Positions 2,458 to 35,934 of a stretch of DNA of 64,000 nucleotides are shown here, one piece after another. The notes below the pieces were generated by a model, which was given only the letters and a program-made list of their open reading frames with translations, made no database searches and had not been told where the DNA came from. The stretch lies in the IMG/VR virus record IMGVR_UViG_3300025316_001101, one strand, 5' to 3'. Origin of the DNA: a virus. Its lineage: Duplodnaviria; Caudoviricetes. How positions within the stretch are numbered: position 1 is the stretch's first letter; each line of letters opens with the position of its first letter. Made by a program: the position numbers and the translations under genes.

Positions 2458-3017
2458 TTCAAGAATGGTTAATCGAAGTTCATCCCGAATCCGTAGATGA
2501 AGGATTTCTTAGTAAAACTCTAGGCGGATTAGGCATGGCTGCGGCATTAGCCACTGGAAGTGGGATGTCTGCACAGGGAGCCGAACCTGTAGCCAAGCCA
2601 GCTATTGCGGCTGAGGCAGGAGCTTCATTCCATGATCCATTTACTAATCAATGGGTCACAGTCAAAGACAGTGAAACATTTTCTTGGAAAGATGGAGTGA
2701 TGGCTAAAGTGATTCCAGAAAAAGGAAATCCAAACATCATTCATGTGAAATTTTTGGTAATGGACGGTTCTCCCATAGCTCAAATTTTAGAAGACAATCC
2801 TAGCAATATGGCTCAGGTGTTTGGCGGTAGAATTAAAGCTTCTCACATGTTAGTATTACAACCGCCTCCTGGTTATATGGGCATGGTGAAGTCTGTGCAA
2901 TTTGAAGGTCGCACAGAAAAAGAAGTGAATGGCAAGCCGGGCAAGATTTATAAATTCACCAGCACATCGCAAAAAATGACGCCAAAGCAAGCGATGATGA
3001 TGCAAAGACAAAACTAA
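2448..3017 (+). CDS. Putative virion-packaged protein (N-terminus MKTFQEWLIE)
   Basis: TAAATA 5 nt upstream of ATG; resembles T4 internal-protein capsid-targeting sequence. Confidence 0.6.
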   Translation: MKTFQEWLIEVHPESVDEGFLSKTLGGLGMAAALATGSGMSAQGAEPVAKPAIAAEAGASFHDPFTNQWVTVKDSETFSWKDGVMAKVIPEKGNPNIIHVKFLVMDGSPIAQILEDNPSNMAQVFGGRIKASHMLVLQPPPGYMGMVKSVQFEGRTEKEVNGKPGKIYKFTSTSQKMTPKQAMMMQRQN

Positions 3018-3244
3018 GTTCCGGCTACTTTTTCCATATCTGCTTTGCGATCACTACTAATATCTGAGTGTGATCGTGGCGTCCAACCAGACCCCTTAAA
3101 GATAAGACCGACACCACCGCTTATAAGCCTTTGCAATTTATCCTTGCCGCATTTTGGACAAGTCTTTTCCGGTTCGGCTTTAATACTATGAAAAAATTCA
3201 TGTATTGATTTGCAATCGCTGCATTGATAATCATATGTTGGCAT
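3014..3244 (-). CDS. FmdB-family zinc-ribbon protein
   Basis: MPTYDYQCSDC...CPKCG...LIS...FKGSGW. Confidence 0.85.
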   Translation of the reverse strand: MPTYDYQCSDCKSIHEFFHSIKAEPEKTCPKCGKDKLQRLISGGVGLIFKGSGWTPRSHSDISSDRKADMEKVAGT

Positions 3245-3258
3245 GAATTAAGATAGTA

Positions 3259-3426
3259 TTATTTTGGCTTTTCAATTCCCAAGGAGGCCAAATAATCTTT
3301 AAGTTCTTTAGCCTCTTTGGGAGCCAATGCGACAATACGATCACCCAGATCTTGGATGTAATCATCAAATCCTGTAACTATTCTTGGATTTTTAGGCGGC
3401 GGAGCCTGAATCACTTGAGTTTCCAT
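3259..3426 (-). CDS. 55-aa protein resembling the N-terminal dimerisation domain of ribosomal protein bL12
   Basis: Manual translation ...IQDLGDRIVALAPKEAKELKDYLASLGIEKPK; AGGA RBS; similarity is from recall of bL12 N-termini, not from a search. Confidence 0.5.
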   Translation of the reverse strand: METQVIQAPPPKNPRIVTGFDDYIQDLGDRIVALAPKEAKELKDYLASLGIEKPK

Positions 3427-3670
3427 ATTGTTCCTTCCAATTTAGATCGGCCAGATCCTCTTGACGGGTCTGATCCTTCCAACATCTTCTTGGATTACCG
3501 CACATATAGCAAGAGCAAGATTTTAGATGATCTGCTCGTTTGGCGGCTGCGTCTTCAAATTCTTGATTTCTCGGTTCACCCAATCGCCAACTATTGTTAA
3601 GGCGATACACTCTTCGAGCCTTGGCCTTCATTCGTTGCGAATCTAATCGTCGTTCTGCTCGTTTTGACAT
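3392..3670 (-). CDS. Basic hypothetical protein with CSCxxCGNPR motif
   Basis: ORF track. Confidence 0.65.
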   Translation of the reverse strand: MSKRAERRLDSQRMKAKARRVYRLNNSWRLGEPRNQEFEDAAAKRADHLKSCSCYMCGNPRRCWKDQTRQEDLADLNWKEQYGNSSDSGSAA

Positions 3671-3750: not shown

Positions 3751-4155
3751 ATGAAAAGAAAATGCTCTACTTGCGGAAAAGAAAAAGAACTCAATGCTGA
3801 TAATTTTAGGCCAAAACTAGATCGTCCTGGAAAATCAAGACTATCTTACTCCTGTCGCCCATGCCAACAAAAACGACAAAGAAACATGCGGCAAATAAAA
3901 AAATCTATAGTGTTTACAAAACTCTCCGAACAACTTGGTTCACTCTGCCCCATTTGTGGGTCGCCAGCGACCGCCATAGATCACAATCACCAAACAAATA
4001 AAATAAGAGGATTGTTATGCATGTCATGCAATACGGGATTGGGATGTTTTGCGGATAATATTGACAACCTACGACGTGCGATTGTTTATCTAAAAAACAA
4101 TTGTGAGTTAGGTGAATGGGAAGAAAAAACAGGCGGTAAACTGTTTTCTACCTGA
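3751..4155 (+). CDS. Endonuclease VII-family (His-Me finger) nuclease
   Basis: CPICG...IDHNH...RGLLCMSCNTGLG...AIVYL. Confidence 0.85.
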   Translation: MKRKCSTCGKEKELNADNFRPKLDRPGKSRLSYSCRPCQQKRQRNMRQIKKSIVFTKLSEQLGSLCPICGSPATAIDHNHQTNKIRGLLCMSCNTGLGCFADNIDNLRRAIVYLKNNCELGEWEEKTGGKLFST

Positions 4156-23577: not shown

Positions 23578-23582
23578 ATAAG

Positions 23583-23675
23583 TGGTGGGGGCTGGGATCG
23601 AACCAGCGATCTTCAGGTTATTCTAGGGCTTGTCTGAGCCAAGAGCCTGACGAGATGCCTCTTCTCCACCCCACG
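23583..23675 (-). tRNA. tRNA-fMet(CAT) with 21-nt insertion in the anticodon (34/35)
   Basis: fMet-like body CGTGGGG/CCCCACC (C1-C72 mismatch), TCAGG/CCTGA; loop CTC[21 nt]ATAA. Confidence 0.7.
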
Positions 23676-34224: not shown

Positions 34225-35934
34225 TTACTCGGCTGCCGATTCCTCGACAACTTCTTCTACAACCGGAGCCGCCGAAGCGTCGTCCAGGCTGACATTTTCA
34301 ATCACCTTGACCCAGTGATCCGCATCGTCGCCGCCTTCCATGAATCCGGCAATAACCTGGAACACTTGATCACTGAAGCCACCCACCTGGAGGATGTCCT
34401 GGTGCTGCTTCACTTGGCTGCTTCCCCTCGGGGTGAGGTCGATACAAACCAACTTTGCCCGTGGATTACGCTTCTTGAACGTCTGCCACTCGGTCATCAA
34501 GCCAGTTGCATTACCATAGGCATAACTGTAACCGCTGTCAACCCAACTTTCGTTGTCGCTGATGAAGACTACAAGGTCGCCCTTTGCCTTCTTTGCATTC
34601 AGTTCTGCCAATGGCAAGCTGCAATTCGTTCCACCACCACCATAACGAGCCAACTTTTGCGCATTCGTCATGATGCTGTCCCTCGAATTCAAGTCGTGCT
34701 TGTAGGTTCGAGTGTCGAACGGAATTACATTTGCCTGCTCGTTAGTACGCAACATGGTCACAGCGAACAGGGCCGCTACGTCCACGCACGAAACCGCCGA
34801 AGATGCACCCATTCGGTATCCCGTTGCCGGGCTACTCATTGAGCCTGAAGTATCGACGCAGACATACATTTCGCCGGAAATCTTCGGCACATTTTGTACC
34901 GCAATTTCCATTGCGTCCTGCAACGCCAAACTAATCTGAGTCGGTACGCCAGTCGCCGCCTTGAAAGCCATCAGCAGTTGGTACGGGAATACCCGTGCCC
35001 GCTCAATTTGCTTCTTGTCACGGAGACGTTCAGCAATAATCTGAACCAATTCCGGGTCACTCAATACGTCGTGTCGCTGGAAGGTGTTCAAATTCATTCT
35101 CGTCATCTGCCACGGGGCAGTACGAGCAATTTGCTTCCACTCGGCTGGGCCGATGCCCAACGAGTCCAACATACGGAAATCAACCCTCGGCACAGTGCCT
35201 TCCTTGGTCCGCTTGTAATTTTCGTAATCCTGCACCAACTGCGGAAGCAGGCTATAATCATGTTCGTAGCAAACGCCTTGAGCGTTTACATATACTTCGC
35301 CATTCTTAGCCAAAGTTACGAGCTTACCGTTGCGAACTTCCGCACCCTTGAGGTATGCGAACATCGCAGCCTTAGCTTCACTGGACGGACGTGGCCGTGC
35401 CATACGAAGAATGTCACGCATGGTCGGATCGTTACCGATAGACGCCTTGAACAAAGCTTCGCCGTTCATACGGTCGAACCAATCACGGATTGCGTGCTTG
35501 ATCGCCCACGAAGTCATATTGATCGGCTTACCGGTGATGGCACCACTACGGCCCATCTGAATAAAGTTTCGCAGCATCTTACCATTGTCGATTACTCGAC
35601 GGAAGACCTTACGGAACAACTTCGGATCGATCTGCGACAATACAACCGTCAAGAACGCTGGCATGTCCTTCATGTATGCCTTGTCACGGCAATAGACCGC
35701 AGTCTTCGCCAGGAACAACGGATCGTCAATCAATGCTTGCGCAGCATCCTTGGCAATCTTTAGATTGTCTTCGGCAGATACGTAGTAAGTGCCGTTGAAG
35801 CAGTTAGTCGCTGCAATTTGAGCCAGCGCATGCTTCGAGGAAAATGAATACGCCTTGCCACCAGCCGCATTAACGGTATCCGCTACCGGTGCAATCGGGG
35901 TACGCTGAGACGCAAAAAGGTTCTTGTTAGCCAT
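34225..35934 (-). CDS. rsr: Ro60 / TROVE-domain RNA-binding protein with VWA domain
   Basis: VNAAGGKAY, MKDMPAFL, MTRMNLNTF, ARVFPYQL, VCVDTSGSM, GGGTNCS, FISDNESW. Confidence 0.92.
   Translation of the reverse strand: MANKNLFASQRTPIAPVADTVNAAGGKAYSFSSKHALAQIAATNCFNGTYYVSAEDNLKIAKDAAQALIDDPLFLAKTAVYCRDKAYMKDMPAFLTVVLSQIDPKLFRKVFRRVIDNGKMLRNFIQMGRSGAITGKPINMTSWAIKHAIRDWFDRMNGEALFKASIGNDPTMRDILRMARPRPSSEAKAAMFAYLKGAEVRNGKLVTLAKNGEVYVNAQGVCYEHDYSLLPQLVQDYENYKRTKEGTVPRVDFRMLDSLGIGPAEWKQIARTAPWQMTRMNLNTFQRHDVLSDPELVQIIAERLRDKKQIERARVFPYQLLMAFKAATGVPTQISLALQDAMEIAVQNVPKISGEMYVCVDTSGSMSSPATGYRMGASSAVSCVDVAALFAVTMLRTNEQANVIPFDTRTYKHDLNSRDSIMTNAQKLARYGGGGTNCSLPLAELNAKKAKGDLVVFISDNESWVDSGYSYAYGNATGLMTEWQTFKKRNPRAKLVCIDLTPRGSSQVKQHQDILQVGGFSDQVFQVIAGFMEGGDDADHWVKVIENVSLDDASAAPVVEEVVEESAAE

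What the first reader, a model, noticed from the sequence alone, without database searches (positions are those of the whole stretch)
3259..3426. Unannotated 55-aa ORF resembling only the N-terminal domain of ribosomal bL12
Seen: an ORF below the track cutoff with an RBS, containing IQDLGDRIVALAPKEAKELKDYLASLGIE. From recall this resembles the bL12 N-terminal dimerisation/uL10-binding helices as seen in Planctomycetota (..ELGDKIA.LT..AKELSDYL..GIE). It lacks the hinge and the factor-binding C-terminal domain. Established: full bL12 genes occur in some phages. Inference: an NTD-only protein could occupy stalk sites and tune recruitment of translational GTPases.
Basis: inference. Interest (0 to 1): 0.6.

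Follow-up and report, generated by a model that had tools for sequence, protein, structure and literature searches.

The report
Headless phage copy of stalk bL12
A giant freshwater phage of planctomycete bacteria carries a small conserved gene that copies only the anchoring end of the ribosomal stalk protein bL12 and lacks the head that recruits translation factors, so it probably tampers with the host's ribosomal stalk, although no function has been tested.

Summary
Real gene, on the minus strand (3426→3259, 55 aa, with RBS), in a tRNA-rich jumbo phage whose host is very probably Planctomycetota. It misses Pfam L12_N itself. However, a profile of planctomycete bL12 N-terminal domains, chosen independently of the query, ranks it first of 2,584 ORFs (E 1e-4, above 5,000 shuffles), and a profile of its own family retrieves several hundred full-length bL12s. 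It belongs to a family of at least 86 short proteins. All 13 genes read in context lie in phage or phage-like DNA outside rplJL; none was found in 151 planctomycete genomes. The family keeps the two-helix core (pN 0.33, pS saturated), adds a Pro-Pro N-terminal extension, and lacks hinge and C-terminal head; no head is encoded elsewhere in this record. Best reading (0.5): it enters or poisons the host uL10–bL12 stalk and lowers the number of factor-recruiting heads. Binding is inferred. Published phage bL12s are the reverse piece (the head). I found no paper on head-less copies. This scan noted the family before in another phage (e1-5350997). The genome also carries a stalk-base rRNA mimic, but the two genes do not co-occur regularly.

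The parts
3259..3426 (-). 55-aa ORF: bL12 N-terminal-domain-only protein (P0002), ATG to TAA
   Evidence: purifying selection in the family
3432..3438 (-). Shine-Dalgarno-like GGAAGGA, 5 nt before the ATG, inside the end of the upstream ORF
   Evidence: purine-rich motifs also precede relatives in L006, L008, L009
3370..3426 (-). Residues 1-19: family-specific N-terminal extension with a Pro-Pro motif, predicted without regular structure
   Evidence: PP before the domain in 78 of 86 family members and 0 of 115 full-length bL12; pLDDT 63-65
3274..3369 (-). Residues 20-51: bL12-NTD-like helical hairpin (helices 21-32 and 36-48)
   Evidence: HMM E 1.1e-4 with the independent profile; AlphaFold2 pLDDT 83-93; structural register D22 = T. 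maritima L12 residue 1 (1dd3_C, Z 3.2, weak)
3392..3670 (-). Upstream neighbour, 92 aa, phrog_4499 (unknown function); overlaps the first 35 nt of the gene. Context only, not conserved next to the gene in relatives
3014..3244 (-). Downstream neighbour, FmdB-family zinc-ribbon protein, 14 nt after the stop. Not a bL12 head; context only
   Evidence: TIGR02605 E 4e-18, PF09723 E 6.5e-15

Best explanation
The gene is a head-less copy of planctomycete bL12 kept under selection by jumbo phages of Planctomycetota. Shown: it is a conserved coding gene homologous to the bL12 dimerisation and uL10-anchoring domain, predicted to form the same two-helix hairpin, with no hinge or head. Inferred: during infection it pairs through this hairpin with itself or with host bL12. 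The resulting dimers either sit on the C-terminal helix of host uL10 or draw host bL12 into pairs that dock poorly. Either way the ribosome carries fewer factor-recruiting heads. In E. coli, fewer bL12 dimers slow the IF2 and EF-G steps but not the EF-Tu step (PMC3299993), so the expected effect is a graded retuning of host translation, or shielding of the stalk from factors that dock there, rather than a shut-off.
For: Homology: (723 hits, most of the 120 listed being full-length bL12). Core positions I24, L27, G28, D29, I31, L34, A39, L42, Y45, L46 are kept in 75-98% of 86 family members. They include residues typical of the Planctomycetia-like bL12 subset and absent from many other planctomycete bL12s (G28, A39, Y45). 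The acidic charge of the domain is kept (-3.6 versus -3.8). Median pN 0.33 against saturated pS 0.87; identity by codon position 0.62/0.77/0.37. The host is planctomycete by an independent gene, so the copy matches its host's stalk type. The phage has no uL10 of its own in this record. Fold: helices 21-32 and 36-48; three or more bL12 N-terminal chains are among the top 20 of 48,161 structures, though at low Z. The NTD alone binds uL10 in the T. maritima L10-(L12 NTD)6 crystal (cited in PMC3299993). The genome is rich in translation-related genes (49 tRNA/tmRNA calls).
Against: Two positions that are near-invariant in host bL12 have drifted. L36 (94% of hosts) is Pro in this protein and in 27% of the family. 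The His/Tyr before the conserved Gly (99% of hosts) is kept by only about 15%, usually lost by a one-residue deletion. If these face uL10 or the partner monomer, stalk binding could be weak or lost. The phage needs efficient ribosomes itself, so a benefit from fewer heads is not obvious. The same hairpin occurs as tandem repeats in signal-peptide lipoproteins, so it can be used away from ribosomes. No expression data exist.
Confidence: 0.5

Rival explanations
1. Re-purposed dimerisation module or adaptor. The hairpin dimerises, but its working partner is a phage or host protein other than the stalk, reached through the conserved Pro-Pro extension; or the extension recruits a phage factor to the stalk in place of the lost head.
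For: The PP extension is family-specific (78/86 versus 0/115), and D22 is better conserved than in hosts (95% versus 50%). L36 and H/Y50 have drifted. Tandem L12_N-like repeats occur in exported lipoprotein-like proteins (P0012, P0032, P0036, P0041, P0045).
Against: The conserved residues are those of the host's own bL12 type. The PP extension is also present on a full-length, head-bearing copy (P0042), so it predates loss of the head. No partner gene is conserved next to it in 13 loci.
Confidence: 0.22
2. Off-ribosome partner of free uL10. It completes uL10 complexes that repress the host rplJL mRNA (autogenous control by L10(L12)4, PMC10931766), or it assembles with host uL10/uL11 on the phage's own RNA mimic of the stalk base to form a head-less decoy particle.
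For: The same genome encodes an RNA matching 23S rRNA model positions 1085-1152, the uL10/uL11 site (RF02541, E 2e-7). A second carrier of the gene, the complete 527-kb G005, has the same RNA.
Against: The RNA pattern is found in only 2 of 9 records that carry the gene and not in complete G001. None of 12 viral records picked for the RNA, 3 of them complete, carries the gene. The two genes lie about 47 kb apart.
Confidence: 0.15
3. Decaying remnant of a captured full-length bL12 gene, truncated and without current function.
For: Full-length copies outside rplJL exist (P0042, P0047, P0057). C-terminal ends vary, 0-31 residues after L46.
Against: 86 divergent members keep the same core and a new N-terminal motif. 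pN is below pS in all 91 pairs, with synonymous sites saturated. No CTD remnant follows the stop in any locus. The three strain variants with a changed codon are synonymous.
Confidence: 0.06
4. Half of a split bL12 whose head is supplied in trans or by recoding (frameshift or stop read-through).
For: G001 carries a bL12 CTD elsewhere, inside an AAA-ATPase fusion; L021 has a weak CTD-like protein 2 kb downstream.
Against: No CTD in this record or in complete G005. Stops are TAA, TAG or TGA in different members, with no CTD in any downstream frame. NTD and CTD of bL12 do not bind each other stably; the hinge tethers them (established knowledge).
Confidence: 0.04

Closest known systems
N-terminal domain of ribosomal protein bL12 (rplL; PF16320), Planctomycetia type (for example Botrimarina sp., P0051)
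   Same: About 55-64% identity over the 28-residue core; same two-helix hairpin and same lineage-typical residues; same acidic charge
   Different: No hinge or CTD; added Pro-Pro N-terminal extension; L36 often Pro; His/Tyr before the Gly mostly lost; not in rplJ-rplL-rpoB; phage-borne
Phage-encoded bL12-domain proteins (Mizuno et al. 2019, PMC6375957; L7/L12 also listed in Al-Shayeb et al. 2020, PMC7162821)
   Same: A phage-borne piece of the stalk protein, acquired from the host, in variable gene contexts, under purifying selection
   Different: Those are Ribosomal_L12 (factor-binding C-terminal) domains, alone or fused; this is the complementary anchoring domain with no head. No L12_N entry was found in the held text or supplements of that paper
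Engineered L10-(L12 NTD)6 complex of T. maritima and the single-dimer E. coli strain JE105 (PMC3299993)
   Same: Show that NTD-only bL12 can occupy uL10, and what fewer heads do to translation
   Different: Laboratory constructs, not natural genes

Membership tests
Ribosomal protein bL12 (rplL) | N-terminal dimerisation domain homologous to PF16320 | tested here: met
   Independent planctomycete profile E 1.1e-4, above 5,000 shuffles; hhalign 97.5%; 9 of 22 relatives hit PF16320. The query alone does not hit the generic Pfam model
Ribosomal protein bL12 (rplL) | NTD folds as a two-helix hairpin | tested here: met
   AlphaFold2 helices 21-32 and 36-48, pLDDT 83-93; prediction only
Ribosomal protein bL12 (rplL) | Structural match to solved bL12 NTDs | tested here: inconclusive
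   1dd3_C Z 3.2 (rmsd 2.7, 32 aligned), 6gaw_CL Z 3.3, 1rqt Z 2.9, tied with unrelated hairpins; Foldseek gave no match
Ribosomal protein bL12 (rplL) | Ala/Gly-rich flexible hinge | tested here: not met
   The protein ends 9 residues after L46; a hinge-like motif occurs in only 2 of 86 members
Ribosomal protein bL12 (rplL) | C-terminal factor-binding domain (PF00542) | tested here: not met
   None in the ORF, in downstream frames or in the record
Ribosomal protein bL12 (rplL) | Encoded after rplJ in the rif operon | tested here: not met
   Neighbours are phrog_4499 and an FmdB zinc ribbon; no uL10 in five carrier records
Ribosomal protein bL12 (rplL) | Dimerises and binds uL10 helix alpha-8 on the 50S subunit | not testable with these tools
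   Needs a binding or co-sedimentation experiment
Phage bL12-domain proteins of Mizuno et al. 2019 | Carries the Ribosomal_L12 (PF00542) domain | tested here: not met
Phage bL12-domain proteins of Mizuno et al. 2019 | Virus-encoded and under purifying selection | tested here: met
   G000 and eight IMG/VR records; pN below pS

The most novel reading that the evidence does not exclude
The protein is a purpose-built stalk adaptor. It docks on host uL10 and swaps the factor-binding head for a Pro-Pro motif that recruits a phage factor; or, together with the phage's rRNA stalk-base mimic and host uL10/uL11, it builds an off-ribosome head-less stalk that diverts translational GTPases or stalk-docking defence factors. 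Either would be a new route of phage control over translation.
Probability: 0.12. Interest if true: 0.85.

Novelty: new variant of a known kind. Interest (0 to 1): 0.55.

Why it matters
The number of bL12 heads per ribosome sets the rate of the IF2 and EF-G steps, and has been proposed as a natural way to tune translation (PMC3299993), but to my knowledge no natural protein that lowers it has been described. A widespread family of head-less bL12 copies in jumbo phages is a candidate for such a regulator and can be tested directly with purified uL10 and bL12. It reverses the known phage pattern (head without anchor). It is missed by standard annotation, being short and below the Pfam cut-off. 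It also marks jumbo phages of Planctomycetota, whose viruses are poorly known.

Tried and rejected
Pfam, NCBIfam, PHROGs and PDB sequence searches with the query alone gave nothing significant; the weak Dps/ferritin matches (E 0.03-0.4) were rejected as generic amphipathic helices. The ESM Atlas gave no usable hit for the query and sub-0.9 leads to L12_N clusters for relative P0030. Foldseek against the PDB found nothing. The complex prediction (four copies plus uL10 residues 120-176 of Botrimarina) returned 'no answer', score 0.02, with the partner poorly folded; this is neither support nor evidence against. No RNA holder was listed. No clear sigma-70 promoter or terminator lies next to the gene. 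No match was found among 50,697 GenBank phages. The first HMM test (E 2.5e-11) was set aside as circular, because those bL12s had been retrieved with the family profile; one search replaces it. A 28-column tree separates family and host sequences (6 label changes against 54 in shuffles), but support is weak, some host and lipoprotein sequences nest inside, and the IQ-TREE run timed out, so no donor or monophyly is claimed. Obligate pairing with the stalk-base RNA was rejected. Recoding and a split gene were rejected. The DUF1559 host-marker search had no working control. Wahl et al. 2000 could not be read, so the interface roles of positions 36 and 50 are not verified. Five targeted literature searches found no description of NTD-only phage bL12; most subscription papers are not searchable.

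Full report
Observation. Window 3259-3426 is an open frame on the minus strand, ATG to TAA, 55 aa, holding the quoted stretch at residues 24-52. GGAAGGA lies 5 nt before the start. It overlaps by 35 nt the end of a 92-aa phrog_4499 gene and is followed after 14 nt by an FmdB-type zinc-ribbon gene. The window belongs to a 259-kb virus record, about 50% complete, with 49 tRNA/tmRNA calls; the identical protein occurs on contigs of up to 374 kb. The best 80 genomic matches to the phage's stand-alone ClpC N-domain are all Planctomycetota, at 78-81% identity, so the host is very probably a planctomycete.

Is it bL12-derived? A search of 1.84 billion representatives found about 20 short relatives. 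Nine of 22 aligned members hit PF16320, and their profile returned 723 proteins, most of the 120 listed being full-length bL12, named as planctomycete where named. To avoid circularity I took 30 Planctomycetota bL12s selected only by their C-terminal domain and built a profile of their N-terminal domains. It ranks this ORF first of 2,584 (E 1.1e-4; next 4.4) and above 5,000 shuffles. The family also aligns to Botrimarina bL12 with probability 97.5. AlphaFold2 gives two helices, 21-32 and 36-48, as described for the bL12 NTD (PMC3299993). The fold search lists T. maritima, E. coli and mitochondrial bL12 N-termini among the top 20 of 48,161 chains, but at Z about 3, which proves nothing alone.

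The family. Three searches plus viral loci gave 86 distinct short members (45-99 aa, median 59). Many lie on short contigs whose viral origin is unverified, and a few may be cut by contig ends. All 13 genes that I could read in context sit among small phage-like ORFs with different neighbours, including complete genomes of 572 and 527 kb. In 151 Planctomycetota genomes the profile found only the normal full-length bL12 downstream of rplJ, in 28 genomes; head-less copies were not found in those searched. Across 14 coding sequences (13 family genes plus one truncated full-length-type gene) pN is 0.33 and pS is saturated at 0.87, with pN below pS in all 91 pairs. Selection by protein similarity biases pN downward, but the frame-specific pattern, the shared new N-terminal motif and the synonymous strain variants argue for a maintained gene.

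Anatomy against host bL12. Kept: I24, L27, G28, D29, I31, L34, A39, L42, Y45, L46, and the acidic charge. Gained: a Pro-Pro extension (78 of 86 against 0 of 115) and a near-invariant D22. Changed: L36 (94% in hosts) is Pro here and variable in the family, and the His/Tyr before the conserved Gly (99% in hosts) is mostly lost. Absent: hinge and head. No head is encoded downstream in any frame, or elsewhere in this record, and stops differ between members, which excludes recoding. Three full-length copies outside rplJL (P0042 beside csrA, P0047, P0057) have altered hinges, and P0042 already carries the PP extension. They look like intermediates, which suggests capture of a whole gene followed by loss of the head; the tree is too weak to prove this order.

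Mechanism. Established: bL12 NTDs form antiparallel four-helix dimers that bind uL10 helix alpha-8, NTDs alone suffice for this in T. maritima, and E. coli ribosomes with one dimer instead of two are 2-fold slower in IF2-driven joining and about 1.6-fold slower in EF-G steps, with EF-Tu steps unaffected (PMC3299993). Inferred: the phage protein pairs with itself or with host bL12 and either fills uL10 sites or removes host bL12 from them, lowering the number of heads per ribosome (0.5). The benefit to the phage is unknown; it may bias initiation or shield the stalk. Rivals: an adaptor or re-used dimer module acting through the PP motif (0.22; the hairpin also occurs in exported lipoprotein-like proteins); an off-ribosome uL10 complex (0.15); a decaying remnant (0.06); a split gene (0.04). 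The off-ribosome idea came from earlier notes on this genome. I confirmed an RNA matching the 23S uL10/uL11 site (E 2e-7) and found it in one more carrier, but 0 of 12 records chosen for the RNA carry the gene, so the two are not an obligate pair.

Comparison and verdict. It probably works like a bL12 anchor, but it is not a bL12: hinge, head and operon context were tested and are absent. Published phage bL12s are C-terminal-domain proteins (PMC6375957), and I found no paper on N-terminal-only copies. This scan reported the same family from another phage (e1-5350997), which is not independent evidence. Class: new variant of a known kind (phage-borne ribosomal protein domains). Interest 0.55: solid homology and conservation, a simple decisive experiment, function untested.

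Noticed in passing
L092:320-463 (G000:C1:206919-207062, outside the window); also L093 (G005): Non-coding RNA behind tRNA-Ala that matches the 23S rRNA uL10/uL11-binding domain (RF02541 positions 1085-1152, E 2e-7) with an insertion of about 80 nt; the same RNA is present in G005 and an exact core pattern in 16 further viral contigs.
   Followed up: partly
L027:1177-2406 (-), G001: 409-aa protein in a complete 572-kb phage: an AAA-type ATPase followed by a bL12 C-terminal domain (E 4e-25) and a tail that by eye resembles the RNA polymerase alpha C-terminal domain (not tested). The same genome carries a head-less bL12 76 kb away.
   Followed up: partly
L021:8148-8585 (+): 145-aa protein with a weak bL12-CTD-like segment (E 1.5e-4), 2 kb downstream of a head-less bL12 gene.
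   Followed up: partly
P0012, P0032, P0036, P0041, P0045 (L090:3001-3426): Lipoprotein-like proteins with a signal peptide, a Cys and two tandem bL12-NTD-like repeats; apparently an exported re-use of the hairpin.
   Followed up: partly
P0068, P0219, P0223, L208:759: bL12-like paralogues with a Pro-rich, non-Ala/Gly hinge, perhaps second copies in planctomycetes; context not checked.
   Followed up: no
L022:670-1119, L023:1274-1663, L209:717-1115: Full-length bL12 genes outside rplJL on short phage-like contigs, one overlapping csrA; likely intermediates to the head-less form.
   Followed up: partly
L112:1414-2055 (G000:C1:210710-211351): Stand-alone ClpC N-terminal (double Clp_N) protein of 213 aa, 78-81% identical to planctomycete ClpC over 130 residues; a possible adaptor decoy, used here as host evidence.
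   Followed up: partly
window 3751-4155 (+): Endonuclease VII-like gene, 134 aa here and in L001/L004, but called as only 44 aa in L002/L003: a strain-level break.
   Followed up: no
window 34225-35934 (-): Ro60/TROVE protein (PF25045 E 1.7e-17, PF05731).
   Followed up: no
window 23582-23675 (-); G000:C1:183724 and 210663; G000:C1:84822-85173: A tRNA-like gene with a 4-nt anticodon call (cttg), two tRNAs with CTA (amber-reading) anticodons, and a tmRNA gene.
   Followed up: no
L008:276-752: Ribosome recycling factor gene about 1 kb upstream of a head-less bL12 gene in another phage contig.
   Followed up: no
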